Source: a virus (lineage: Duplodnaviria > Caudoviricetes). From it: a DNA stretch of 64,000 bases. The first letter of the stretch is position 1; each line of letters begins with the position of its first letter. Positions 50,170-63,966 of the stretch are shown piece after piece. Location of the stretch: the IMG/VR virus record IMGVR_UViG_3300008259_002461. One strand, given 5' to 3'. The notes under the pieces were generated by a model that saw only the letters and a program-made list of their open reading frames with translations, was not told where the DNA came from and did not search any database. A program made the translations under genes and the position numbers.

Positions 50170-50711
50170 TCTGATTGTTCCCATGGATATACTAACCAAA
50201 CATCTTCTTCTGCCTTGTTTACTTCTGTACTGTAGTAGCTAACTTCGTCAAACTTAGAACTTAGATTGTTAGTTAGCACTGCAAATCTAACGTTCTTACC
50301 CCACACACTATTCCATGCTGAATCTTCGTTTGGAAAACATCCACTAGACCAATCTTCTTTGATCCAATTAAACGTAGCACCGGTATCGTTGATATCATCG
50401 ATAACAAGGATATTCTTTCTTTTTGAAATATCCCATCTACTCTTTAATGTCAATTGCTCTTCAGGTGATACAACCCCAAATGCATCTTCAGCTATACCTA
50501 AATCACTTACACATTGGCCACCATCACGCAGACTAACTTCTAGTGGGCGCATAGGAATATCAGTTAGATGACTTAGTATTACAGCAGGTATAGCACCGCC
50601 ACGAGTAATACCAACAATGTAGTCTGGACGCCAATTATCTTTGTACATCTGCATACTGATGCCTACACACATGTGTTGAATATCAGACCAAGTGTAGTAG
50701 AGTTTCTTCAT
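50166..50711 (-). CDS. Type I (purine) phosphoribosyltransferase
   Basis: IVGITRGG, LVIDDINDTGAT (PRPP loop) and VYPWE. Confidence 0.88.
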   Translation of the reverse strand: MKKLYYTWSDIQHMCVGISMQMYKDNWRPDYIVGITRGGAIPAVILSHLTDIPMRPLEVSLRDGGQCVSDLGIAEDAFGVVSPEEQLTLKSRWDISKRKNILVIDDINDTGATFNWIKEDWSSGCFPNEDSAWNSVWGKNVRFAVLTNNLSSKFDEVSYYSTEVNKAEEDVWLVYPWEQSE

Positions 50712-50938
50712 TGCGTTAAACCGTAGGCCAATGCTTGAAGTTCTTCTTTAGTCATAAAAAAATTGTATGTTTGACTATCGGCAACTTCACCGTCTTTTAA
50801 ACTTTCTTGAATAAGTTCAAGACTAAACAATCCCTTAGGGTTTAGTACTTCGTGTTTTACCATGCGTACACGATAACCATCGTGTTCTTTAATTGTCATT
50901 TCTCTACGAGTGTGTGCAACTGATTCATGTAGTTTCAT
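50708..50938 (-). CDS. Hypothetical protein
   Basis: ORF with ATGA coupling. Confidence 0.65.
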   Translation of the reverse strand: MKLHESVAHTRREMTIKEHDGYRVRMVKHEVLNPKGLFSLELIQESLKDGEVADSQTYNFFMTKEELQALAYGLTQ

Positions 50939-51360
50939 TTTGAGTCCTTTATAGTTTCAAATATTTTATACTTTTCTTCGGCAAGTCGATACTCTTGTGC
51001 CGCCTCTTTAATTTTTATATTAACATCACTTTGAAGTTTTTGCAAGAGTAATTGATATTGTTCTCCTGATTGTTTAAGTCCTTTAAACTTTGATTCTAAA
51101 TCCCTGTTACGATTTACAACGCCAGTGACTGCCATTAAATCTTTAAGTACTTGTTCAACATCAATGCCGTTAACGTCAAGCGGAACAGTAACAGTCATCC
51201 GACCTTGATTTATTATCAAACTAGCATCTACAGACGAATTAGTAATTGCAGAGGTAGTATATCCACCATTGACTACTGTATTGTTATTAGGAGCAAGATT
51301 ATTATACAATGAATTAACAGTCCATGCAATCGGATTGGATTTAGTATTAACTGTTCCCAT
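50935..51360 (-). CDS. Hypothetical protein
   Basis: Low-complexity N-terminus and coiled-coil C-terminus. Confidence 0.65.
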   Translation of the reverse strand: MGTVNTKSNPIAWTVNSLYNNLAPNNNTVVNGGYTTSAITNSSVDASLIINQGRMTVTVPLDVNGIDVEQVLKDLMAVTGVVNRNRDLESKFKGLKQSGEQYQLLLQKLQSDVNIKIKEAAQEYRLAEEKYKIFETIKDSK

Positions 51361-51799
51361 GCCGTTCCTTTAGATATTGTTCGTTTGGTATCCATTTATT
51401 GTTAACTAAAAATCCCCAATCACGTTTATGTGGACCAGGCATAAAAAGTGTCCAAGCAGTGACACCTTCTTTTAGTTCAATGCGATGATAGCTATTAGGA
51501 CTGCAAATACGGAAATGCCCAGGACCTCTCCATTTACGCACTTCACATGATTTAGTGCCGTCTGAATTAAATTGCGGAATCCATTCGTAGTAACCGCCTT
51601 TAAGAATTAATGTAGCATAAGGCCAAGGATGATCATGTACATCATCTGGATCGCCTTTTAAAAACTTGTGTAAAAATATATTGAAAGGAAAACGTTCTCT
51701 TTCTTTTAAGAAAAGATAGTAACGCTCTAAATACGGCTCGTCATTAACACGATCCATAATAATTCTTTTTCTACCTAAACGTTCAAGAATTTTCAGCAT
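51347..51799 (-). CDS. Cupin-fold protein
   Basis: DVHDHPW..GGYYE..YHRIEL. Start moved to 51799. Confidence 0.7.
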   Translation of the reverse strand: MLKILERLGRKRIIMDRVNDEPYLERYYLFLKERERFPFNIFLHKFLKGDPDDVHDHPWPYATLILKGGYYEWIPQFNSDGTKSCEVRKWRGPGHFRICSPNSYHRIELKEGVTAWTLFMPGPHKRDWGFLVNNKWIPNEQYLKERHGNS

Positions 51800-52181
51800 C
51801 TTTCTTACCTTTCCAATCTTGTAGTACAAGATCGTATACTGTTTTGAAGTTTTCGTATACCTTTGCTAGTGCAGGGTATTCTTTACACATAGATTCAACT
51901 TCAACTATTTCGATATGCGTGTTTTGTGTGGTTACCCACCATTGGGGGTCTACAGGGCTTATTGTAGTGTAAGTTCCACCAGCGCCGCTGGTTATCGTAT
52001 TATATCCACCTGCACCACTGCCTATACTAATAGTATCATCAAGAGTTATTGTATAACTGCTATCTATTGAACCTAGATCTTGTGCTAGGATGCCAACACC
52101 GCTACCGCCAAGATATGTAGTTGTTGAACCGTATGTGTCGTTTAAATTTATAACAACAGTGTTGGAATCTTTATCATCCAT
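51783..52181 (-). CDS. Hypothetical protein
   Basis: G/S/T-rich N-terminus and helical C-terminus. Confidence 0.65.
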   Translation of the reverse strand: MDDKDSNTVVINLNDTYGSTTTYLGGSGVGILAQDLGSIDSSYTITLDDTISIGSGAGGYNTITSGAGGTYTTISPVDPQWWVTTQNTHIEIVEVESMCKEYPALAKVYENFKTVYDLVLQDWKGKKDAENS

Positions 52182-53265
52182 TTATTGCCTCATAAAGAGC
52201 TTTTCCTGAGAAGAATTCTTTTTTAAGTTTTGCTGTTTGTTTAAGTAAGCTAGGAAGAAAACTTTCGTAATTTTCCATATATTCAACTACTTGATTTACT
52301 ATTTGTTTTCTATTTTGAATATAAGATCCAAAATCTTCTGTCCATGTACTAGGATACTTAAACTCTGCTAAAGCCATTTCAGAATAGCTTAAACGATCAG
52401 GAACCATTGGAATAGCATTTACTAGAGCGCCTTCGTACCAACTAATACCTAATGTTTCTTGCAAGTTAGCTGAAAACACTAATTTAGCACGACCAAGAAT
52501 ATTATGATATTCGTTCTTAGTTAATTGTTGCTCTTGACAAATTACAAATTCATACTGAGGTAGTTGTTCTTTAAGATCGCGAAAAATATCAACTTGTTTC
52601 TCGGGAGCAATACGATGAGGGAAAACAATTAAATTTTCCTTATCCATGCATTTGTAACTGTCTAGGCTGTGTTCTAGATATTCCATAGGCCAGCCCACAC
52701 GTTTGATTCTAGGATGTTCGCCAGCCAATGCATCAGCTATATCATCTTCTATCCAAGGATTATCTAGACCAAACAATGTTCTTACAAACATGTCAATGTG
52801 AAAATCTGTAGCAAAGAAGTTATCGTCGTATGTAAAAAACATACTCTGTTCAGCATGTCTTACCCAAGGCTTGTTTCCAATCAGTCGACCTAAGAAATCT
52901 TGAGGATCATAACTACCAGCATGCCATAAGCCACCAATTCTGATATTAATGTTTAGCAATTCAGCCATGTAACGAAGCTGTATAACTGTAGGGTTCCACG
53001 CATCAGTATAAAGGAAGTAGTCGCCATCTTTAACATCTCCCCTACAAAACATCTCCCCTATGGTTTCCAACTGTTTACTTTTATAAACATTAGTACCACC
53101 AAAATTAAGAAATGCTCCAGGAGTTGTAGCTTGTGGTGTATCACCGCCACTAATGACTACTACTTCTTTATTCGTAGCATGATGCAGTTGTTTAGGTAAG
53201 TATTCCTTCCACTGCTTAGTATAGCGAGTGTCAACTGCTTCAATATCTACGATATAGATTGTCAT
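52174..53265 (-). CDS. GT-B (GT4-like) glycosyltransferase
   Basis: FPHRIAPEKQ, NLQETLGISWYEG (ExFGxxxxE-like) and VPDRLSYSEM. Confidence 0.75.
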   Translation of the reverse strand: MTIYIVDIEAVDTRYTKQWKEYLPKQLHHATNKEVVVISGGDTPQATTPGAFLNFGGTNVYKSKQLETIGEMFCRGDVKDGDYFLYTDAWNPTVIQLRYMAELLNINIRIGGLWHAGSYDPQDFLGRLIGNKPWVRHAEQSMFFTYDDNFFATDFHIDMFVRTLFGLDNPWIEDDIADALAGEHPRIKRVGWPMEYLEHSLDSYKCMDKENLIVFPHRIAPEKQVDIFRDLKEQLPQYEFVICQEQQLTKNEYHNILGRAKLVFSANLQETLGISWYEGALVNAIPMVPDRLSYSEMALAEFKYPSTWTEDFGSYIQNRKQIVNQVVEYMENYESFLPSLLKQTAKLKKEFFSGKALYEAING

Positions 53266-53519
53266 TAAGAACCTCTACGGTCGTAAAAACGTTTTGCACC
53301 ATTGTTAGTATTGGTGTTATTGTTGTAATTATTAAATCTACCACGACTCTTCGATTTGTAGATTAAGAATTTTTGGTAAGCCTGCCAAACAGGCGACTGG
53401 GTATCATAAAGATCCTTCTCATCGAAAGGATACCCACCGTAACCTTCGAAGCGACAAAAGTCGCGGAACTTATCCAAGTCGTCGAAAATTTTATTGACTG
53501 GAGGAAAAGTTTGTGCCAT
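53265..53519 (-). CDS. Hypothetical protein
   Basis: 84-aa ORF within the operon. Confidence 0.65.
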   Translation of the reverse strand: MAQTFPPVNKIFDDLDKFRDFCRFEGYGGYPFDEKDLYDTQSPVWQAYQKFLIYKSKSRGRFNNYNNNTNTNNGAKRFYDRRGS

Positions 53520-53532
53520 TTTAATTTACCTT

Positions 53533-53922
53533 TTAAAGATTGAATGGATAATAGATAAGTGAGCCGTTTTCTCCATCTTCGGAGACTTCTATTTCGACAA
53601 AGCGGCCTGGAAACTTTGAACGAATTTGCTGATACAAATCATCTGAAATCATCTCACATGATTTGTGATTCAGTTCTAGTGTGCCTTGATTATAAAGATT
53701 TTCTAACCAACGCTTAAATTGAATAAATTCGATGTCACGATCGTCGTGAAACACTTCGATACGAATTTTAAAGTGAAAAATGTGTCTATGGGGATAGCCT
53801 AGAAAACTTACGTCATACTGATCTCCAGTTTTTAGATTAGGGTCTGTAAGTGCTGCCGGGTAAAGATGAATGCCTTCTTTACGGAAGGTTACCCAGATGC
53901 TTTTTGTAATTGCTGTACTCAT
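53533..53922 (-). CDS. queD: QueD/PTPS-like T-fold enzyme
   Basis: EGIH..HRHIFH metal site, IEFIQFK, SCEMI and EDGENG. Confidence 0.6.
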   Translation of the reverse strand: MSTAITKSIWVTFRKEGIHLYPAALTDPNLKTGDQYDVSFLGYPHRHIFHFKIRIEVFHDDRDIEFIQFKRWLENLYNQGTLELNHKSCEMISDDLYQQIRSKFPGRFVEIEVSEDGENGSLIYYPFNL

Positions 53923-53928
53923 GTTCTT

Positions 53929-53957
53929 ATGATACTTTCAATGTAGGTAGTTGTCAA
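53929..53957 (-). promoter_or_regulatory. Sigma70 promoter, probably leaderless transcript
   Basis: TTGACA-17 nt-TATCAT with the ATG 6 nt downstream. Confidence 0.65.
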
Positions 53958-53958
53958 C

Positions 53959-54483
53959 TTATTTGATAACTTCGTCTTCGGAATATTGAGACCATTCGGT
54001 AAACTTTGAACGATCCATTAGGTCGTGTAGGCTGTGACACCAAACACCGGGATTAGATGCTTTAAAATCTTTGTCGTCAATCTTAAGCATTGTGTTGTAA
54101 TTCCATAAACGGATGTATGGAATAGGAACTCGAATCTGTGGAATAAAATTGCTATACTCGTTAAATGCACTGTCGTTGAATGTTTCAACGTGGGATAATG
54201 GAATGTCTAAAGTACATAGAACACCTTGTTCCAAGAATGGAAGAATCATAGATTCCCACTCTAACCATGCGTCAAAGCTACCTATGTCAGGATGAAAGCT
54301 GTGATTAGCACCAAAGAAAATATGCTTTACATCTTGTTCGATCATGTGCTTTTCTACAACGTCTGGACTATGAACCCCTGTAACAAACAGTGTGGGCATT
54401 CCATAAGCAGGAGTTTTTTCTATTTCATATCCAAAGAAAAATACTGCGTCATCTGCTTCACCTGTGCTGTAATCTCTTTTCAT
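53959..54483 (-). CDS. Hypothetical protein between the TGT-like and QueD-like genes
   Basis: 174-aa ORF with HIFFGANHSF and NPGVWCH, fold unrecognised. Confidence 0.75.
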   Translation of the reverse strand: MKRDYSTGEADDAVFFFGYEIEKTPAYGMPTLFVTGVHSPDVVEKHMIEQDVKHIFFGANHSFHPDIGSFDAWLEWESMILPFLEQGVLCTLDIPLSHVETFNDSAFNEYSNFIPQIRVPIPYIRLWNYNTMLKIDDKDFKASNPGVWCHSLHDLMDRSKFTEWSQYSEDEVIK

Positions 54484-54689
54484 GTTAAAGTCATTCTTAT
54501 TAATTGTTGGTTGATTCGATGTATCTCGTCTTTAAGCCATAGCTTCATAGTTTTCTTTTTTCGAACTTCGTCTGAGGCTGTTATATTATTATAGCGTACT
54601 TCAATTTCTGTGTCAAGCTCTTTATGTCGCCGTTCTAATTCTTCTAGATGTGCTTTGAGTTTATCATAGTCATTATTAAAGTTGCTCAT
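54480..54689 (-). CDS. DUF465/YdcH-like coiled-coil protein
   Basis: LEELERRHKELD..KLWLKDEI. Confidence 0.6.
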   Translation of the reverse strand: MSNFNNDYDKLKAHLEELERRHKELDTEIEVRYNNITASDEVRKKKTMKLWLKDEIHRINQQLIRMTLT

Positions 54690-56235
54690 CCTCTAACGCC
54701 TCCAATTTATGTTCTTCATCTTCTGTAAAACAACCATCTTCCAGTTCTTCTACTTCAGGTTCAACTACATCAAACAAAGCTCCAAAATATGTGCTAGAGT
54801 TTACAGTCTTTTTACCAATGGCGCCTCTAGTGCCTGGAATAGCCATCCAAAACTTTGAGTTTTGTTCTATCAACTTATTTGCAGCTTCTCTTGTAGTCTG
54901 TGAAAAGATTTCTTCTACAAGATCTCTAAAGAACACCCTGTCAAACTTTTCTTGTACAAGCATGTTTGGTACAACTCCAGCATCATACTGTCTGTTAGCT
55001 TCCTGTACTGCATTAATATGGCTCCAAACATTATGGCCCATTTGAATAGCGTAACTAAAACTATCCCAACTTGTGCGACCTTCTTTGCCAATTTTATTCA
55101 AGTCACCTGGTTTGTAAACGCATACATCACTAACTTTCATTTCTGCTGTAATAGGACTATCTTCAAAGTTTTTAAAGATACCATCTTGCAATACTGCTTG
55201 TTTAAAAGTTCTAGTATCAGTTGCATACTTTTTATCGTCAATGCTTGGAACCATTCTATAGGTCCACTTGCCTCTATCAGGTGTTTCGTTCTGAATATAA
55301 ATCTGTCCATTAGCAGTTGCTAAGAATGGACTTGCACAGTCAAATGTCAACATCATAGTAGGATTGTAATACTTACGAATAGCACGTTGTAAGTCTGTAA
55401 GCAAACATGCCCACTCTAACTTACTAGTACCCAAGAAGTGCATTACATCATGTACGCCACTTTGTAGTAAGCCATCAAAGTGTAGTGCTACTATACGTTT
55501 AAGTACTAGATGCACGTCACACATATTTTGCCCACCCATTGACCACCCATTAAAGTGATTGTCAGGATACTTAACTGGATCGCAATAATCTTTCATCTGC
55601 TGATACCAATCTTCTGCATCTGTATGATTCTCACCTTGTAGTACGTTTAAGAACTTACAAGCACCTGTACGATGCTTCATCCAATAATCGTTATTGATAC
55701 GTGTTGCGGTTACAGCTTCGTCGTATGTACTAATGCCTGTAGCTTTTGCACCTTCGGGTGAGCGAGCGACCCAGGCAGGAATATCAAGTACCATGCCATA
55801 GTCCATATACGCATCCATCCAACGTAATACACCATCTCGTTTCTTTTGTGCCTTAGGACAATTAGGATCTTTCCAATCACCTTCCCAAACACCCTTACCA
55901 ATCTGGAAACCACCTGAGTCGCCTAGTAACCAAGTGTTTTGACGATCCCTGTTCCGTACCATATCTTCTTTAGGCACAATTTTGTTTGTATCTAAATCAG
56001 CGTGACCCGCAGAGTAAAGCGTCCACTTATAGGTAAACGCTCCCTGTTGTGCATTTAGATAGTTAAGACTTTCTACACCATTTTGAAAGTTAGCCGGAAT
56101 ACGAGTGTCTTCGATGTAAGGACCTTTAACAGGATCAGGAAAACGCTGCTTGCCCACGTAAGTTGCATAAAAGCCACTTAGTGCTGGTAAAAAGTGTGCG
56201 TAATCGTTTTGTGTTGCTGTTAAGTCTTTATTCAT
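54676..56235 (-). CDS. dpdA: Guanine transglycosylase family protein (DpdA/TGT-like)
   Basis: GDSGGFQ, VLDIP, VLQG, SMGG, HFLG and TFDCAS (TGT catalytic Asp motifs). Confidence 0.75.
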   Translation of the reverse strand: MNKDLTATQNDYAHFLPALSGFYATYVGKQRFPDPVKGPYIEDTRIPANFQNGVESLNYLNAQQGAFTYKWTLYSAGHADLDTNKIVPKEDMVRNRDRQNTWLLGDSGGFQIGKGVWEGDWKDPNCPKAQKKRDGVLRWMDAYMDYGMVLDIPAWVARSPEGAKATGISTYDEAVTATRINNDYWMKHRTGACKFLNVLQGENHTDAEDWYQQMKDYCDPVKYPDNHFNGWSMGGQNMCDVHLVLKRIVALHFDGLLQSGVHDVMHFLGTSKLEWACLLTDLQRAIRKYYNPTMMLTFDCASPFLATANGQIYIQNETPDRGKWTYRMVPSIDDKKYATDTRTFKQAVLQDGIFKNFEDSPITAEMKVSDVCVYKPGDLNKIGKEGRTSWDSFSYAIQMGHNVWSHINAVQEANRQYDAGVVPNMLVQEKFDRVFFRDLVEEIFSQTTREAANKLIEQNSKFWMAIPGTRGAIGKKTVNSSTYFGALFDVVEPEVEELEDGCFTEDEEHKLEALEDEQL

Positions 56236-56237
56236 TA

Positions 56238-56588
56238 TTATACCAAATGTTGTGCCAATACCATACAGCTAATCCAAGCCCATATAGTGTTGAACCCTAC
56301 TAATGTTGGTAACAGTTTCTTCTCGCTAGCCCAAATCAATGTTAGACTTGTAAACAACGTGAAGAAATATAACCACCAAATTTGTATACCAAATATTAAG
56401 CCAGGAACAATAATAAAGGCCTTAGCCGCCCAACTGGCAAACTCTACTGTATTATAGTCAGTCCAATATTCCTTTGTAAACCACATGCCGTAACATTCTT
56501 TAATTTTTTTAAATCCTATGTGACCATATACAGCGCCACACAGAACTAAAAATGCTAAACATGCAGATAGTATTTGTACACTATTCAT
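56238..56588 (-). CDS. Small multi-pass membrane protein
   Basis: 3-4 hydrophobic segments. Confidence 0.65.
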   Translation of the reverse strand: MNSVQILSACLAFLVLCGAVYGHIGFKKIKECYGMWFTKEYWTDYNTVEFASWAAKAFIIVPGLIFGIQIWWLYFFTLFTSLTLIWASEKKLLPTLVGFNTIWAWISCMVLAQHLV

Positions 56589-57319
56589 TACTTGCTCTGC
56601 GCAGGAAGAATGTAATCGTATTTTGCTAATCCGCTGTCAATACTGATCATCATAGCACCTTGATCAGAAATGCTCACAGTAGAGTCACCGTCTAGATTTA
56701 GAATACTTTGAATTTGTGCAACTGGCCAACTCCATGCATGCTTTAGAGATCCAGATATATCGTGTTGAAATACAAATGAACCTGCGTGTGTACTTGCGTC
56801 ACCAAAGTAAAAAACTAGATTATTGTTCTCTGTCTTGACAGTAAAGATTGGCTCTTCGCTGTGTGCGGCGCTCATTAGCTTCATACGTTGAATTGATGCA
56901 ACACTAGGTTTAAATGTTACTTCCCATGATGCGCCTTTGAATTTAACAGTCTTAAGTTTTTCTTCGATAATTGCTTTGTTCATAAAGCGATAATCGTTTT
57001 CAAAGTCACCTGCGGCATTTTCAAAGTGAATGTGTGTTGGAATAACGTCACCGTTTCTTTCTGCACTTTTAACTTCAATCTTTGCCTTATCCTTATACTC
57101 AGGATTTTTTAAATGGAGAGAAAGTTTATCTAAGTTTGGCATACCAAATGTGCCAATAAATTCAGCGACTGGTTTATGAGTGCTTGCAGTTAAAATAACA
57201 GAACGATCTTCTGCCATTGAATCAATAGTAGTTGATCCGTTTTCTGAATTAACTTTCACTAGTGCTAAAAATCCTAGTGCGTGTGTATGTGCTACGATAT
57301 CTTGTAGTATGTCTTTCAT
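56588..57319 (-). CDS. Sliding clamp (T4 gp45-like)
   Basis: 243 aa next to polB with its own promoter and AAGGAG SD. Sequence pattern fits a clamp. Confidence 0.6.
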   Translation of the reverse strand: MKDILQDIVAHTHALGFLALVKVNSENGSTTIDSMAEDRSVILTASTHKPVAEFIGTFGMPNLDKLSLHLKNPEYKDKAKIEVKSAERNGDVIPTHIHFENAAGDFENDYRFMNKAIIEEKLKTVKFKGASWEVTFKPSVASIQRMKLMSAAHSEEPIFTVKTENNNLVFYFGDASTHAGSFVFQHDISGSLKHAWSWPVAQIQSILNLDGDSTVSISDQGAMMISIDSGLAKYDYILPAQSK

Positions 57320-57341
57320 GCCTGTATATCTCCTTATTAAA

Positions 57342-58067
57342 TTACAGTTTAATGTCTAAGCCTTTATTTGTCAAGAACTCTTTGACATTGTATTTAGGTT
57401 CAAAGCCTAATTCTTTTAAAATTTCTATGTTTGCCTGTGTACACTTTCTTTCGTGTAGTCTATTTAAACGAAGCGGTTTTCCTGGAGCTAGATCTTGAAC
57501 GTTAGTACTTTCGCCAGTACCAACATCAACTACTCCTTTAATATTTGGATTTTTTATCAATAGCTCAATAGCATCACATAGATCCTCTACGTGAATAAAA
57601 TCTCTAGAATGATCAGTGATATATTCTAGTGAGTTTGATAACAGTTTATCCAATAACATGCCTTTTCTAGGATTGTCAGAATACACAGTATGGAATCTCA
57701 TACCCACGCTATTATCCGGAGCCATCATGTCCATGATATATTTGGATGCGGCATACGGATTTAGTGTAGGCTCATATGCTGAACTTGAACTTGCATACAG
57801 TATGCGAGCTTCACTAAACTGATCAAAAATTCTACGCGATCCTTCAACGTTGACATGCCAATAAGGTCCAGGAAGCCGCATACTTTCTCTTACACCACTT
57901 TTTCCTGCTAGATGTATTACTACATCAACTTCGTAATCAAGTGTACATGTTAGAATGTCTTTTCCATCTTTTAAATCTATACCATACATAGTATAGCCTC
58001 TATCCCACAAATATGGATAAAGGTGACTACCAATAAATCCTTTATGACCTGTCATTAAAATACGCAT
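57342..58067 (-). CDS. NAD-dependent nucleotide-sugar epimerase/dehydratase
   Basis: TGHKGFIG, HLAG, YASSSS, YAASK, RFHTVY and RDFIHVED. Confidence 0.88.
   Translation of the reverse strand: MRILMTGHKGFIGSHLYPYLWDRGYTMYGIDLKDGKDILTCTLDYEVDVVIHLAGKSGVRESMRLPGPYWHVNVEGSRRIFDQFSEARILYASSSSAYEPTLNPYAASKYIMDMMAPDNSVGMRFHTVYSDNPRKGMLLDKLLSNSLEYITDHSRDFIHVEDLCDAIELLIKNPNIKGVVDVGTGESTNVQDLAPGKPLRLNRLHERKCTQANIEILKELGFEPKYNVKEFLTNKGLDIKL
57346..57374 (-). promoter_or_regulatory. Sigma70 promoter
   Basis: TTGACA-17 nt-TAAACT. Confidence 0.65.
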
Positions 58068-58071
58068 TACT

Positions 58072-58182
58072 TTAATCCTGAAATCTTTCTTTTAATTCTT
58101 TTAACATCTGAATGAGTTCTTCGATTATTTGTAAATCGTGATCTCTTTCTGTATCTACTTCTACTTCAATTTTAATTTTCAT
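58072..58182 (-). CDS. 36-aa hypothetical protein (not in ORF track)
   Basis: MKIKIEVEVDTERDHDLQIIEELIQMLKELKERFQD fills the gap after polB. Confidence 0.55.
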   Translation of the reverse strand: MKIKIEVEVDTERDHDLQIIEELIQMLKELKERFQD

Positions 58183-58183
58183 T

Positions 58184-59224
58184 TTAGTCTCCAAAGTCAA
58201 ACAAACTGTTGAAGGTATTGTGTCGCTTAGTATCCTCTAATGGATAGTCCAGCACTCCAATCAAATTGTCTAACTTATTATCAATAATAGTTTCTGCCAT
58301 TGCTGCATCATCAAATGGCAGTTCTTTGAACCATTCAGGCATACGTAATTCATCTGTTGGATAAGCAACACTTGTATAGCCCAATGGGTTTTGTTTTAGT
58401 TTGCAAACAATAACTTTCATGCCGTCAACAATCTCTTGCGAGTATTTGTCTCCGTTCATACGTTTAAGTGTATTCCAATTAATACTTGCTCTAACGTGGC
58501 CGGGCATGTTTGCTTTGCCCTGTTTTGCTTCGAGTCGTTGATAGTGTCCAATCTTGTTTGCACGTTTTGGACTACCTTTCTCCCAACCCGGACGTTCACT
58601 AAACTCTTGCCGGAATCTTGTAATACGTTCTAATACATCTTCTCTAGGTTTATCTGTAAGCACCATAAGCAATAGTTCGCTTAGAAATTCTTGCATAAAC
58701 ACAGGTGTATCACTTCTACGCAGGTCTAAGCCCATAGCCTTTACTTTGCCTGGCTTACCATCTACGTCACTGCGGAAACCTTCTGTGTCATATACCAGAG
58801 CCGCATAACGTTTTTTAGTAATAAACAATCCGCTTTCAGCAACAATCTCACGACCTGCGGCAATAACTTCTGCTCGACTTTTTGGACAATGAAATGATTT
58901 TGCCATCATGTCAACAAACGTAGCATTGGCTGCTTCTGCTACTTGATCGTAAAGTGTAATAACATTTTCTTTAGACCACGGAATCTTACCTGCTTCTACT
59001 TCTTTACTGAGAGTAGGCCAAGCACTAAAATACACAGAGTCAGTGTCACCGTAAATTACTGCCTCACCAACGTGATCATAAACACCAGTAATAACTTTGT
59101 TTACTTCTGCACTCATGTGTTTAACAATAGTACGACCAGTAAGAGTAGTACTATTGTTAGAGCAACATCCTTGCGCTTGCTCATAACAGCTTCGTATTCT
59201 TCTGTTGCAAAACGACCTTCCCAA
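58184..59224 (-). pseudogene. polB: Family B DNA polymerase, C-terminal fragment (motif C, thumb)
   Basis: STTLTGR, YGDTDS, KKRYA and KAMGL. Homology begins near 59150 and the first about 25 aa are off-frame. Confidence 0.85.
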
Positions 59225-59784
59225 CTTCCAGCAAATGTTTTTTTCTTAAGAGTTATGTCTTCGTGAACACGAGCATCACTGATGTCTAGTCGTATTTGTC
59301 CAACGATAGTTTCTGGAGCCATATTCAAAGCACGAATCACTGACGGATACAGAGAGTTCAAGTCCATCGAACCAATCCATTTGTGCAAGCCTTTTTTAGG
59401 AAACGCAACGTATGCACCTGCGGCTTGTATATTTTCTTCGTTATCTCTGTTTGTACGATTGGGAACCTGCAATCCACGATTGTGAGCTTCGTTGATAATA
59501 CCTTGTTCAGTAACAGCAACAGCACCCATTGTAGTTTGGATAAGCACGGTGTTCTCATGTGCAATGGTATTACTCAAATCAATAAAGCGCAGTTTTTTAT
59601 CTAACTTATCAAGTAGTGCAGTATCTTGAATGTTGTATTGAATAAACTTTTTAAAGTCATTGTTGTAAAGCTGATCCAACGTACCTTCGTATGCTGTCTT
59701 GTTTTCGCCTACTTCAATTTCACCAATAGCATCTAGTCGATAACTGTGACGTTCTTCATAGGTATACTTACGATACAAGTTCAA
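59113..59784 (-). pseudogene. polB: Family B DNA polymerase, middle fragment (ExoIII, motif A)
   Basis: YRLDAI, YNIQD, GAYV and SMDLNSLYPS. Motif B (KxxxNSxYG) is absent. Confidence 0.85.
59122..59159. repeat. 12-bp inverted repeat at polB junction 2
   Basis: taacaatagtac (59122-59133), 14-nt loop, gtactattgtta (59148-59159). Confidence 0.8.
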
Positions 59785-60346
59785 ACTGTCTACGTTCTTC
59801 GATAAGTGTTAAGAACGTGTCCAGCATGTCCTTTTCTTTTTCAAACAACATTACATTAGGAATATCTTTAACTAATTCTGTCGCTTGCTCCATAGTAAGT
59901 GTCTTAGGAGGGACTGCCAAACATATCATTGTTTCTAACCACTGCAAATAAACGGAGACAGACGTAATGCCCATAAATGGATCGCTAGGGTCAGCAAATC
60001 CACGTTCGGGATCAAAGTCTGTCTCAATATCGAAAAATGCAATGTTTAGTTTTGGAGCATCTTGGTTGAGATAGTTTTCACTTAGACATTGAAAGATTGG
60101 ATTAATATCACTTTCAAATAAAGTTTTATCTCGATTGATGGCAATTTCTTTGCGGAAATCTTTTGTGTTCTTACATACAATACGACTCAAAGGATCTCCG
60201 TACACACTCTTGTACTTGCCTTTTTGGTCTTTGTAGTAAAATGTATACTTTACAGGATATTCACGGAATGTTCTAACTCCGTCTTTGCGTTCAACTATTT
60301 TGATCGTATCATGATCACGGTCAAACAATGCGTCTACGTAACTCAA
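59768..60346 (-). pseudogene. polB: Family B DNA polymerase, N-terminal fragment (ExoI)
   Basis: FFDIETD ExoI. Ends at DTFLTLIE just before the expected ExoII. TTG start. Confidence 0.85.
59792..59818. repeat. 8-bp inverted repeat at polB junction 1
   Basis: acgttctt (59792-59799), 11-nt loop, aagaacgt (59811-59818). Confidence 0.7.
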
Positions 60347-61729: not shown

Positions 61730-63247
61730 TTACTTTGGTGCAGTACCTTTAAATTTTCCAGCAGCGATTCCTGACAGGGTATCGCCTTTAACAACGGTAT
61801 ACGGCTCTGTCTTACCTGGTAATTTAATTGTCTGACCAACTCTAATAAGATTAGGATTTTTAATATTGTTGGCCTTAGCTAAAGCTGTAATTGCTCTTGA
61901 AAACTGTGCTGATGGATCTCTACCACCTCTAGTATTTGTTCCACTACCTGCGGCCGGATCGTTAGTGGCTGTACCAACTGATCCTACATAACTACTCCCG
62001 CCAGCGCGATCGAGGCCGCCACTAGTTGTAGTTGATCCGTCCGGTTTTACAGGGGTTACTTGTGCACCGCCACTAGTTGTAGTTGATCCGTCCGGTTTTA
62101 CAGGGGTTACTTGTGCACCGCCACTAGTTGTAGTTGATCCGTCCGGTTTTACTAGCGGATTTGTTTTAGCCCAACCAGCGGCTGGACCTGGATCGCCATA
62201 CAGCGCACTAGATGGGTGTTTTGGATTTCTCAATGCAGTGTTTACATTATTATCTCGTAACTCTATAGCTTTCTTTCTAGTAATAAATCCAGATTTATAA
62301 ATTATAACAGCATCTTCTATATTTGCATATCTTGCAGATTTATAATTTCCTGATTGGTCTTTATCAACATATACATAGCTGTCGCCATTTGGCATTGAAT
62401 ACAATCCAGGAAGATCTAATCGCTCTGCAACTCTTCCTAAGAATTGTCTTTTAATATAGTCTGGACTCATTGCGAATCTTTTAAATCCGCGGCTAAAGCC
62501 TTGAAGGAAACTGTCGTCGTCTCGTGACTGTAAGAAATCGCGTATTCCTTTTACTGTGTCGTTCATGTCTTGTTCAACTTCTTCAATAGTTGTAGGAACA
62601 CCACGCTTTGCTATTACACGATCAATATAGTCATTAACTTCGTTAGACTCAACCAGTCTGCTTTCGCCTACGTGTTCGGGCTTGCCTTTGTGCTTTGTAC
62701 TTGCATAGTCTTTAGCAGCTGATTTGCTCATGCCTTTAGCAGCCTTGGCTACTTCTGGACTTGCAGCTTTTTCGCCTTTCTTTGTAGCATAGACCATGCC
62801 CATAAATTTTTGTTGCGCTTTTGACTTAGCTTTTTCTTCTAGTTGTTGAGCTAGACGTAACTTGTATTCATCTTCTTTAACACAATTATCTACAGTCTTG
62901 CCGCCTTTTTGCTTAGTACCCATGCGCTTGTAACCGTCCCAGCATGCTTTGCCGTCAACGCCTTTTTGTTTTTCACTTTCGGCCATTTGAGCGCCAAACT
63001 TCATTTCATACTCTAAGTTATGAAAAACTGAACCAATGTAGTCAGCTGCCTTGGTAATTTTGCTCTGCTGCCATGCTTCTAGGCCCTGTTCTTCAGAACG
63101 ACCTTTAAGCATTTCGTGCAGTTTGATTGCATACTTGGCAATTTTGTACAGCTCAGAACGAGCCATTTGAATTTCGTGATCCATTTCTGCTTGTGCAGCT
63201 AAATCACCTAGGCCTTCTTTGACAGATTTTAAATCTTTTTCGCGCAT
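61730..63247 (-). CDS. Modular virion-type protein with tandem repeats and LysM-like C-terminus
   Basis: KSKAQQKFMG module, 17-aa repeats, NPNLIRVGQTIKLP and YTVVKGDTLSGIA. Confidence 0.7.
   Translation of the reverse strand: MREKDLKSVKEGLGDLAAQAEMDHEIQMARSELYKIAKYAIKLHEMLKGRSEEQGLEAWQQSKITKAADYIGSVFHNLEYEMKFGAQMAESEKQKGVDGKACWDGYKRMGTKQKGGKTVDNCVKEDEYKLRLAQQLEEKAKSKAQQKFMGMVYATKKGEKAASPEVAKAAKGMSKSAAKDYASTKHKGKPEHVGESRLVESNEVNDYIDRVIAKRGVPTTIEEVEQDMNDTVKGIRDFLQSRDDDSFLQGFSRGFKRFAMSPDYIKRQFLGRVAERLDLPGLYSMPNGDSYVYVDKDQSGNYKSARYANIEDAVIIYKSGFITRKKAIELRDNNVNTALRNPKHPSSALYGDPGPAAGWAKTNPLVKPDGSTTTSGGAQVTPVKPDGSTTTSGGAQVTPVKPDGSTTTSGGLDRAGGSSYVGSVGTATNDPAAGSGTNTRGGRDPSAQFSRAITALAKANNIKNPNLIRVGQTIKLPGKTEPYTVVKGDTLSGIAAGKFKGTAPK
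62016..62152. repeat. 51-bp in-frame tandem repeat, about 2.7 copies
   Basis: Identical units at 62016-62066 and 62067-62117, partial at 62118-62152, encoding VKPDGSTTTSGGAQVTP. Confidence 0.95.
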
Positions 63248-63381: not shown

Positions 63382-63966
63382 CTACAGCAAACCTGCTTTC
63401 ATCATAGCAGCCTTAGTTTCTGGGCCGCCCATGCTTGCGCCTGTTTTTCCATCTTTTATAGTAAGGTAAGGCGCAGGAGTTCTAGCTATAGCAGAGCCGT
63501 TATCATTCTTATTAAGTATGTAATGCGTATTACTTTGAGTGTCTAATACTGCTTTTCTTGTAGCACCAAATGCATCAATAGATGTTAAAACAAACCCATT
63601 GCCTAAGTCTTGTTGCTTAGATATGTTCTGATCTATTTCTCCTATACCTCGATTAATCCCTCTGCTACCTGTTCCGCCCTTTTTACGCTTCTTAGCAAGT
63701 TCGTCTATGCCGTGGCGTATTTGTTCAAAGTTCTGTTCTAGGCCCATAAACATGCCGCCTTTAGATAGCTTTGTAATTCTTTCCCATACTTCAAGTTCGT
63801 CGCTGTCTGCCATCTTTGCAAGTTCTTTTAACTGTGCTCTGGCCTGCATAATACGACCTTTAAGTGTCATAGGGTTAGCTTTTTCGTGCCCGTAGATTCT
63901 TGGATTGTTTGGTTCACTAGGATCCATTTCAATAGGAGCTTCGTTTACTAGATCATGTACTTTCAT
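63382..63966 (-). CDS. Hypothetical protein (virion-associated?)
   Basis: 194-aa ORF with ATGA coupling. Confidence 0.7.
   Translation of the reverse strand: MKVHDLVNEAPIEMDPSEPNNPRIYGHEKANPMTLKGRIMQARAQLKELAKMADSDELEVWERITKLSKGGMFMGLEQNFEQIRHGIDELAKKRKKGGTGSRGINRGIGEIDQNISKQQDLGNGFVLTSIDAFGATRKAVLDTQSNTHYILNKNDNGSAIARTPAPYLTIKDGKTGASMGGPETKAAMMKAGLL

What the first reader, a model, noticed from the sequence alone, without database searches (positions are those of the whole stretch)
58184..60346. DNA polymerase B lacks ExoII and motif B, with a hairpin at each frameshifted junction
Seen: three frames. Junction 1 (about 59795) goes from TLIE straight to (V)DSLNLYRK, skipping the GWN..(F/Y)D ExoII region. 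Junction 2 (about 59150) goes from ALTI to STTLTGR, skipping KxxxNSxYG. Both junctions lie within inverted repeats (8 bp and 12 bp) whose arms span the breakpoints. Established: motif B is essential for catalysis. Possible explanations: hairpin-templated deletions in a defective genome, missing segments encoded elsewhere, or assembly collapse at intron/intein-polymorphic sites. An artefact is a serious possibility.
Basis: partly seen in the sequence, partly recalled or inferred. Interest (0 to 1): 0.72.

Follow-up and report, generated by a model that had tools for sequence, protein, structure and literature searches.

The report
Broken polymerase gene, private to this record
The DNA polymerase gene of this uncultured lake jumbo phage lacks two essential pieces only in this one sequence record; every other assembly of the same phage carries the intact gene, so this is a defective or artefactual copy, not a new kind of polymerase.

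Summary
Compared with same-strain contigs that are 100% identical on the flanks, the window's family-B polymerase gene lacks exactly 185 nt (ExoII) at 59796|59795 and 325 nt (fingers, motif B) at about 59152|59151. 185+325 = 510 = 3x170, so pieces 1 and 3 share a frame.

Both deletions are private to this record. At least ten independent contigs (IMG/VR, JGI, ENA including a 316,657-nt contig, Logan) have the intact 890-aa gene, as do about 160 relatives. No collection I could search holds either junction, although junction 2 was searched only in IMG/VR. The missing segments are not elsewhere in the window.

The hairpin claim holds. An 8-bp and a 12-bp inverted repeat span the junctions (P about 0.007 and below 0.001 against random same-size deletions). 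Both fit snap-back template switching. That points to a physical polymerase event, in the cell or during amplification, rather than a k-mer collapse.

Assemblies of this phage often break in polB, and another JGI contig has its own private 79-nt deletion of motif C.

Verdict: a non-functional, record-specific allele of low interest. The scan has seen snap-back artefacts on other DNA, but not this one.

The parts
59768..60346 (-). polB piece 1: N-terminal domain and ExoI (FFDIET). It ends 8 out-of-frame codons after junction 1.
   Evidence: 100% identical to intact same-strain contigs down to 59795
59795..59796 (-). Junction 1: 185 nt missing (residues about 184-245 of the intact 890-aa protein, ExoII), with 1 nt of microhomology (A).
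   Evidence: Logan contigs carry 184 extra letters here
59792..59818 (-). 8-bp inverted repeat ACGTTCTT/AAGAACGT with an 11-nt loop; the right arm spans junction 1.
   Evidence: dG -6.0 kcal/mol; P about 0.007
59151..59795 (-). polB piece 2 (shifted frame): ExoIII (YNIQDT) and motif A (DLNSLYPS).
   Evidence: 645 nt 100% identical to intact contigs
59150..59153 (-). Junction 2: 325 nt missing (residues about 461-569, fingers with motif B), with 2 nt of microhomology (AG at 59152-59151).
   Evidence: Logan contig X9 record 24 carries 323 extra letters here
59122..59159 (-). 12-bp perfect inverted repeat TAACAATAGTAC/GTACTATTGTTA with a 14-nt loop; the left arm spans junction 2.
   Evidence: dG -8.7 kcal/mol, z -6.59; P below 0.001
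58184..59152 (-). polB piece 3 (same frame as piece 1): motif C (YGDTDS), palm and thumb.
   Evidence: 100% identical to intact contigs

Best explanation
The window holds a dead copy of the phage's gp43-type family-B DNA polymerase gene. It carries two clean internal deletions (185 nt = ExoII; 325 nt = fingers/motif B) that exist only in this record. The phage itself, an abundant uncultured lake jumbo phage distantly related to Pseudomonas phage PA5oct, has a normal single-ORF 890-aa polymerase. Shown: the exact deletions, their privacy to this record, the intact gene in the same strain elsewhere, and the non-random inverted repeats at both joints. Inferred: each joint was made by snap-back template switching of a DNA polymerase on real DNA. 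At junction 2, a nascent antisense 3' end GTA folds back on its own TAC and copies 9 nt (CTATTGTTA). It then re-anneals on TAACAATAG at the far edge of the lost segment. At junction 1, a nascent sense end AAGAA folds on TTCTT, adds CGT, and re-anneals on ACGT 185 nt downstream. I cannot tell whether this happened in an infected cell (a rare defective genome) or during library amplification; my odds are roughly even. The assembler probably kept the deleted path because polB is where assemblies of this phage habitually fragment. No functional polymerase can come from this copy: ORF1 stops 8 codons after junction 1, and motif B and ExoII are absent.
For: Same-strain contigs have 100% identical flanks and an intact gene: IMG/VR L083; JGI L084, L173, L174; ENA k141_990718 of 316,657 nt (L172); Logan L175, L176, L178. 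Logan contigs of 4 runs from 4 studies carry about 184 and about 323 extra letters at the two joints, and none bridges them as the window does. Of 164 loci with polB, 159 read as one uninterrupted frame. Junction 1 is absent from IMG/VR and from the metagenome contigs, and junction 2 from IMG/VR. The three ORF products are not on record. The rest of the window is clean: 1-53327 matches an independent ENA contig with one mismatch and no indels, and 50588-59156 matches L084. The inverted repeats spanning the joints are improbable by chance and fold stably. Microhomology of only 1-2 nt rules out k-mer or overlap collapse and simple direct-repeat slippage. The anatomy equals the published snap-back model, in which inverted primer repeats prime short synthesis that creates microhomology with the other side and leaves a longer inverted repeat (PMC5728401). 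Template switching that perfects hairpins is documented (PMC8794818, PMC7202029). Chimeras primed at 2-21 nt of complementarity arise in MDA (PMC1855051). polB is an assembly trouble spot: Logan contigs break at 59152 and inside the gene, and ENA contig k141_1891493 ends at window position 58978, inside polB.
Against: I could not see the raw reads of the record's own sample, so the frequency of the deleted molecules there is unknown. Two rare events in one 2.7-kb gene, with none in the other 61 kb, needs a gene-specific reason or a single compound event. That part is inferred, not shown. The snap-back start at junction 2 rests on only a 3-bp stem. The third private polB deletion, in JGI contig L085, shows no hairpin at its joint, so one mechanism may not cover all cases. 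Contigs drop rare variants, so their silence does not prove the deleted form is absent from those runs.
Confidence: 0.62

Rival explanations
1. A purely computational mis-join. The assembler, scaffolder, gap closer or a curator joined contig ends that had broken inside polB, and no DNA molecule with these deletions ever existed.
For: Contig ends pile up in polB. Logan contigs of X1 and X2 end exactly at 59152. ENA k141_1891493 ends at 58978, the same nucleotide as the private deletion joint of JGI contig L085. The joints occur in no other searched record.
Against: De Bruijn or overlap joins need tens of shared bases, and here there are 1 and 2. An algorithm has no reason to place both joints so that 8-bp and 12-bp inverted repeats form across them (joint chance about 1e-5 or less). 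There are no N runs or k-sized duplications at the joints.
Confidence: 0.2
2. A natural defective genome that is genuinely abundant in its sample. A nuclease (for example a homing endonuclease of a co-infecting relative) cut conserved motif-coding DNA in polB. The ends were rejoined by snap-back synthesis, and the cripple is propagated by intact helpers.
For: polB of this family is a homing target: a split intein sits at YGD|TDS in L160, and a Hef-like endonuclease gene occupies the same site in PA5oct. Homing endonucleases favour conserved sites of critical phage genes such as DNA polymerases (PMC2988022). Four private deletions in three contigs each remove a catalytic motif: ExoI in L047, ExoII and motif B in the window, motif C in L085. 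L085's deletion covers the intein homing site. The joints fit break-repair snap-back synthesis.
Against: No intein, intron or endonuclease gene was seen at ExoII or motif B in about 164 relatives. Each deletion is a singleton. A polymerase-null 316-kb phage has no evident way to become abundant. Deletions this large would cover a motif about 5% of the time by chance (my estimate). None of four runs with the same strain shows the joints.
Confidence: 0.15
3. A working polymerase assembled from parts. The missing ExoII and fingers segments are encoded elsewhere and supplied in trans, or the three pieces are read through by programmed frameshifts.
For: Split gp43 genes exist in T4-related phages (43A/43B of Aeromonas phages 25 and 44RR, PMC2988022) and in this family at motif C. 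The two deletions sum to a multiple of three.
Against: Nothing resembling the missing segments is in the window. The same strain encodes them in place. No intein halves, spacer or start signals lie at the joints, because the pieces abut to the nucleotide. I saw no slippery run at either joint on reading the sequence. A read-through product would still lack motif B.
Confidence: 0.02

Closest known systems
RB69/T4 gp43-type family-B replicative DNA polymerase (PDB 1CLQ, 1IG9)
   Same: The intact same-strain protein aligns with RB69 gp43 over residues 26-835 (E 1e-64), with ExoI-III and motifs A-C in order. Pfam PF03104 and PF00136 hit the pieces.
   Different: The window's copy lacks the ExoII block and the whole fingers with motif B, and it is frame-broken. 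It is a pseudogene of this family, not a variant enzyme.
DNA polymerase of Pseudomonas jumbo phage PA5oct (Wroclawvirus; QCG76192/QCG76194)
   Same: It is the closest named relative in the middle piece: about 59% amino-acid identity. Over the full intact protein, Sinorhizobium phage Phosso is the top hit at 48%.
   Different: PA5oct's gene is split at motif C by an intein-like element with a Hef-like homing endonuclease gene, and it has about 90 extra residues in the fingers. All catalytic motifs are present there.
Snap-back synthesis-dependent microhomology-mediated end joining / quasipalindrome template-switch mutations (PMC5728401, PMC2943611, PMC7202029, PMC8794818)
   Same: Short inverted primer repeats lie next to the break. 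A few templated nucleotides create homology with the other side (9 nt at junction 2, 3-4 nt at junction 1). The final joint is embedded in a longer perfect inverted repeat.
   Different: Those studies concern Drosophila, yeast, E. coli and vertebrate genomes and mostly small deletions. Nothing here shows a double-strand break, or which polymerase acted.
Chimeras of multiple displacement amplification (Lasken and Stockwell 2007, PMC1855051)
   Same: Displaced 3' ends re-prime nearby on 2-21 nt of complementarity, giving intramolecular rearrangements with deletions.
   Different: More than 85% of MDA chimeras are inverted. Here the sequence runs on in direct orientation, which needs a second switch. 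I do not know whether the source library was amplified.
Split or fractured polB genes (43A/43B of Aeromonas phages 25 and 44RR; split-intein 'fractured genes', PMC2677866, PMC2988022)
   Same: The polymerase gene is in several ORFs. A true example occurs in this family (L160).
   Different: In real split genes every segment is kept and the pieces are separated by an intein, an endonuclease gene or a spacer. Here 510 nt of essential coding sequence are simply gone.

Membership tests
Family-B (gp43/RB69-type) DNA polymerase, functional member | ExoI motif (DxE) | tested here: met
   FFDIET in ORF1, aligned to RB69 FDIE
Family-B (gp43/RB69-type) DNA polymerase, functional member | ExoII motif (GWN..(F/Y)D) | tested here: not met
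   SGWNSEGYDIPY lies in the 185 nt absent from the window
Family-B (gp43/RB69-type) DNA polymerase, functional member | ExoIII and motif A | tested here: met
   YNIQDT and DLNSLYPS in ORF2, though in a shifted frame
Family-B (gp43/RB69-type) DNA polymerase, functional member | Motif B (KxxxNSxYG) in the fingers | tested here: not met
   KKILLNSLYG lies in the 325 nt absent from the window
Family-B (gp43/RB69-type) DNA polymerase, functional member | Motif C (YGDTDS) | tested here: met
   VIYGDTDSV in ORF3
Family-B (gp43/RB69-type) DNA polymerase, functional member | One continuous reading frame, or pieces that together hold all segments | tested here: not met
   Two frames; ORF1 stops 8 codons after junction 1. 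The same strain elsewhere has one 890-aa ORF.
Split/fractured polB (intein, homing endonuclease or spacer between pieces) | An intervening element between pieces and no loss of extein sequence | tested here: not met
   The pieces abut with 1-2 nt of overlap and 510 nt of coding sequence are lost. Compare the true split intein in L160.
Snap-back template-switch / SD-MMEJ-type deletion | Inverted primer repeats beside the joint, and a joint embedded in a longer inverted repeat than chance gives | tested here: met
   8-bp and 12-bp repeats spanning the joints, P about 0.007 and below 0.001; folds
Snap-back template-switch / SD-MMEJ-type deletion | Templated nucleotides give homology to the far side of the deletion | tested here: met
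   By reading: CTATTGTTA pairs with TAACAATAG at the left edge of the 325-nt segment, and CGT with ACGT at the right edge of the 185-nt segment.
Snap-back template-switch / SD-MMEJ-type deletion | A double-strand break or stalled fork at the site, and the identity of the polymerase | not testable with these tools
   Needs the source reads or an experiment.
Programmed ribosomal frameshift | A slippery site at the frame change, and a conserved two-frame arrangement in relatives | tested here: not met
   I saw no slippery run at either joint on reading the sequence. Apart from one poor-quality contig with two frameshifts (L118), relatives read in a single frame.

The most novel reading that the evidence does not exclude
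polB of these lake jumbo phages is repeatedly hit at the DNA coding for its catalytic motifs, by homing endonucleases of co-infecting relatives or by a host nuclease. The breaks are sometimes closed by snap-back synthesis. Polymerase-dead genomes with motif-sized deletions (ExoI, ExoII, motif B, motif C in three different contigs) would then really circulate in natural virions at levels that assemblers can pick up.
Probability: 0.12. Interest if true: 0.5.

Novelty: not a real feature. Interest (0 to 1): 0.15.

Why it matters
Taken at face value, the record suggests a replicative polymerase without proofreading motif ExoII or the nucleotide-binding fingers, which would be remarkable. It is not that: the phage has an ordinary gp43-type enzyme. 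The practical value is as a caution for annotation and for polB-based phylogenies of uncultured jumbo phages. polB is a place where assemblies of this abundant lake phage break and occasionally carry private deletions. The two joints are also a clean, statistically supported example of snap-back template-switch deletions. If they arose in the cell, they would say something about break repair in T4-like phages.

Tried and rejected
- **Whole genome:** none is held for this window, so the missing motifs could be sought only in the 64 kb. tblastn and blastn of the lost segments against the window gave only chance hits.
- **Phage records:** megablast of the region against GenBank phages found no match.
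- **Exact look-ups:** the three ORF products, an alternative ATG start of piece 3, and the neighbouring 505-aa product are not on record. The source record could therefore not be identified.
- **Junction words:** no hits in IMG/VR or in the metagenome contigs.
- **Read laying:** only Logan contigs were available, not raw reads. No contig bridges the joints as the window does, but contigs drop rare variants, so this does not show the deleted form is absent from those runs.
- **The contig break at 59152:** a synonymous CAA/CAG polymorphism lies directly beside the joint in run X2. That can explain the Logan contig break at 59152 without any deletion variant, so the break is not evidence for the variant.
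- **Hairpin test on L085:** none found at its joint. L047 has no relative close enough to define its joint.
- **Hot-spot test among relatives:** not significant. One deletion occurred in about 125,000 polB residues, against none in about 60,000 residues of neighbouring genes.
- **Rfam scan of the L160 insertion:** no intron.
- **Rejected ideas:** k-mer collapse and direct-repeat slippage (only 1-2 nt shared), stripped N runs (this would not place hairpins at the joints), and a human-likeness or other mask (same objection).

Full report
**What is there.** On the minus strand of window 58184-60346 lie three abutting ORFs (192, 223 and 346 aa). They hit the family-B polymerase exonuclease and polymerase Pfam models. 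In the middle piece the nearest named relative is the polymerase of Pseudomonas jumbo phage PA5oct, at about 59% amino-acid identity. A tblastn of the PA5oct protein onto the window shows three blocks that abut to the nucleotide, at 59796/59795 and at 59152. PA5oct residues 184-245 and 463-648 have no counterpart anywhere in the 64 kb.

**Exact deletions.** IMG/VR and other collections hold many relatives. I fetched 80 from IMG/VR and 80 from metagenome contigs. More importantly, they hold contigs of the same strain. IMG/VR contig L083 is 100% identical to the window over 59795-59151 and 59152-58852. It carries 184 and 323 extra letters between those blocks. The same holds for:
- JGI contigs L084, L173 and L174;
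- the 316,657-nt ENA contig k141_990718 (L172);
- Logan contigs L175, L176 and L178.

Allowing for 1 nt (A) and 2 nt (AG) of ambiguity, the window lacks 185 nt and 325 nt. These code for residues of about 184-245 and about 461-569 of an intact 890-aa protein. Aligned to RB69 gp43 (E 1e-64), they are the ExoII block and the fingers with motif B.

The deletions sum to 510 = 3x170 nt, so pieces 1 and 3 are in one frame and only the middle piece is shifted. ExoI, ExoIII, motif A and motif C remain. ORF1 runs into a stop 8 codons after junction 1.

**The deletions are private to this record.**
- Of 164 loci with polB, 159 read as one uninterrupted frame with both segments.
- Logan contigs of four runs from four studies (lake and freshwater metagenomes) were laid on the window. 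Contigs with zero mismatches on the flanks carry about 184 letters at 59795 (X1 record 7, X9 record 29) and about 323 letters at 59151/2 (X9 record 24, with matching loose ends in X2 and X14). No contig joins the flanks as the window does.
- The word across junction 1 is absent from IMG/VR and from the metagenome contig collection. The word across junction 2 is absent from IMG/VR.
- The products of the three ORFs are on record nowhere.

The rest of the window is clean. Positions 1-53327 match an independent ENA contig (k141_1891493) with one mismatch and no indel. Positions 50588-59156 match L084.

**The hairpins are real and not chance.**
- At junction 1, ACGTTCTT (59818-59811) pairs with AAGAACGT (59799-59792).
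- At junction 2, TAACAATAGTAC (59159-59148) pairs with GTACTATTGTTA (59133-59122).
- In each case one arm spans the joint.
- As single-stranded DNA they fold at -6.0 and -8.7 kcal/mol, with z-scores of -3.05 and -6.59.
- I made 3000 random deletions of the same size in the intact gene. An arm-spanning repeat of 8 bp or more arose in 0.7% of them. One of 12 bp arose only when the draw reproduced the real deletion; otherwise nothing exceeded 9 bp.

**How the joints most likely formed (inferred).** Only 1-2 nt are shared at each joint. That excludes k-mer or overlap collapse and ordinary slippage between direct repeats. Both joints fit snap-back template switching.

At junction 2:
- A nascent antisense strand has just copied the TAC that starts the right flank.
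- It folds its 3' GTA onto its own TAC, 14 nt back.
- It copies nine bases of itself (CTATTGTTA).
- That end is then perfectly complementary to TAACAATAG, the last nine bases before the lost segment, 325 nt further along the template. Synthesis resumes there.

At junction 1:
- A nascent sense end AAGAA folds on TTCTT (5 bp, 11-nt loop).
- It adds CGT.
- It re-pairs with ACGT at the right edge of the lost 185 nt.

This is the published snap-back scheme. Inverted primer repeats prime short synthesis that creates microhomology with the other side and leaves a longer inverted repeat (PMC5728401). It is also akin to quasipalindrome template-switch mutation (PMC7202029 and PMC8794818). Strand-displacing amplification makes chimeras by related re-priming on 2-21 nt (PMC1855051). 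An enzymatic origin therefore seems more likely than an algorithmic one. I cannot tell whether it happened in a cell or in a tube.

**Why polB, and why twice.** Assemblies of this phage tend to break in this gene:
- In all four runs the gene is in small pieces while the flanks are in multi-kb contigs.
- Two runs have a contig ending exactly at 59152.
- By coordinate arithmetic, the 209-kb ENA contig ends at window position 58978.

A synonymous polymorphism directly beside 59152 can explain the break there, so I do not count that break as evidence for the deleted variant.

A second same-strain contig, JGI L085, has its own private deletion. It is 79 nt long (59057-58979), removes YGDTDS (motif C), and has its right edge at that same nucleotide 58978. 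It shows no hairpin. A more distant IMG/VR contig, L047, lacks 65 residues including ExoI, in frame.

Two readings remain:
- Strain mixtures tangle the assembly graph in this gene, so rare deleted molecules or chimeric reads get used as the path.
- The gene is really attacked. The family does carry homing elements at motif C: a split intein in L160 and an intein-like split with a Hef-like endonuclease gene in PA5oct. Homing endonucleases favour conserved sites of essential phage genes (PMC2988022).

Against the second reading:
- No element was seen at ExoII or motif B in about 164 relatives.
- Every deletion is a singleton.
- A comparison with neighbouring genes among relatives gave no significant excess.

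**Rejected functional readings.** The missing segments are not relocated within the window. The pieces are not separated by intein halves, an endonuclease gene or a spacer, as in true split gp43 genes. On reading the sequence I saw no slippery site at the joints, and a read-through product would still lack motif B.

**Verdict.** The hairpin-templated deletion idea is supported at the level of junction anatomy. The biological claim of a polymerase lacking ExoII and motif B is not a real feature of this phage. What remains open is whether the deleted molecules were natural defective genomes or library chimeras. Only the source reads can settle that.

Noticed in passing
L160:1715-5078: In this relative (Ga0136601_1000126) polB is a true fractured gene. 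ORF A ends at YGD followed by an N-intein-like tail. After a 143-nt gap, ORF B starts with a C-intein-like segment ending GHLVHN and then TDSVYF. There is no endonuclease gene between them and no Rfam intron hit. PA5oct (L001) is split at the same site, with a Hef-like homing endonuclease gene between the halves.
   Followed up: partly
L085:1100-1150 (window 58978-59058): JGI contig Ga0114337_1000250 is 100% identical to the window over 8.4 kb. It has its own private 79-nt deletion that removes motif C (YGDTDS) and covers the intein homing site. There is no hairpin at the joint. By coordinate arithmetic, ENA contig k141_1891493 ends at the same nucleotide (58978).
   Followed up: partly
L047:1703-4192: IMG/VR contig 3300028423_000138 has an in-frame loss of 65 residues of polB, including ExoI (FFDIET). 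No relative is close enough to define the joint.
   Followed up: partly
window 62016-62152: The number of 51-nt tandem repeat units (PDGSTTTSGGAQVTPVK) in the LysM/DUF3008 gene differs among same-strain contigs. Products are 488, 505 (window) and 522 aa. The 505-aa form is not on record elsewhere.
   Followed up: no
window 63388-63636: About 225 nt here have no counterpart in the 316-kb ENA contig of the same strain. The neighbouring ORF is 194 aa in the window and 154 aa there.
   Followed up: no
L118:129-2519: Contig FUIF01013098.1 has two frameshifts in polB, probably from poor sequence quality.
   Followed up: no
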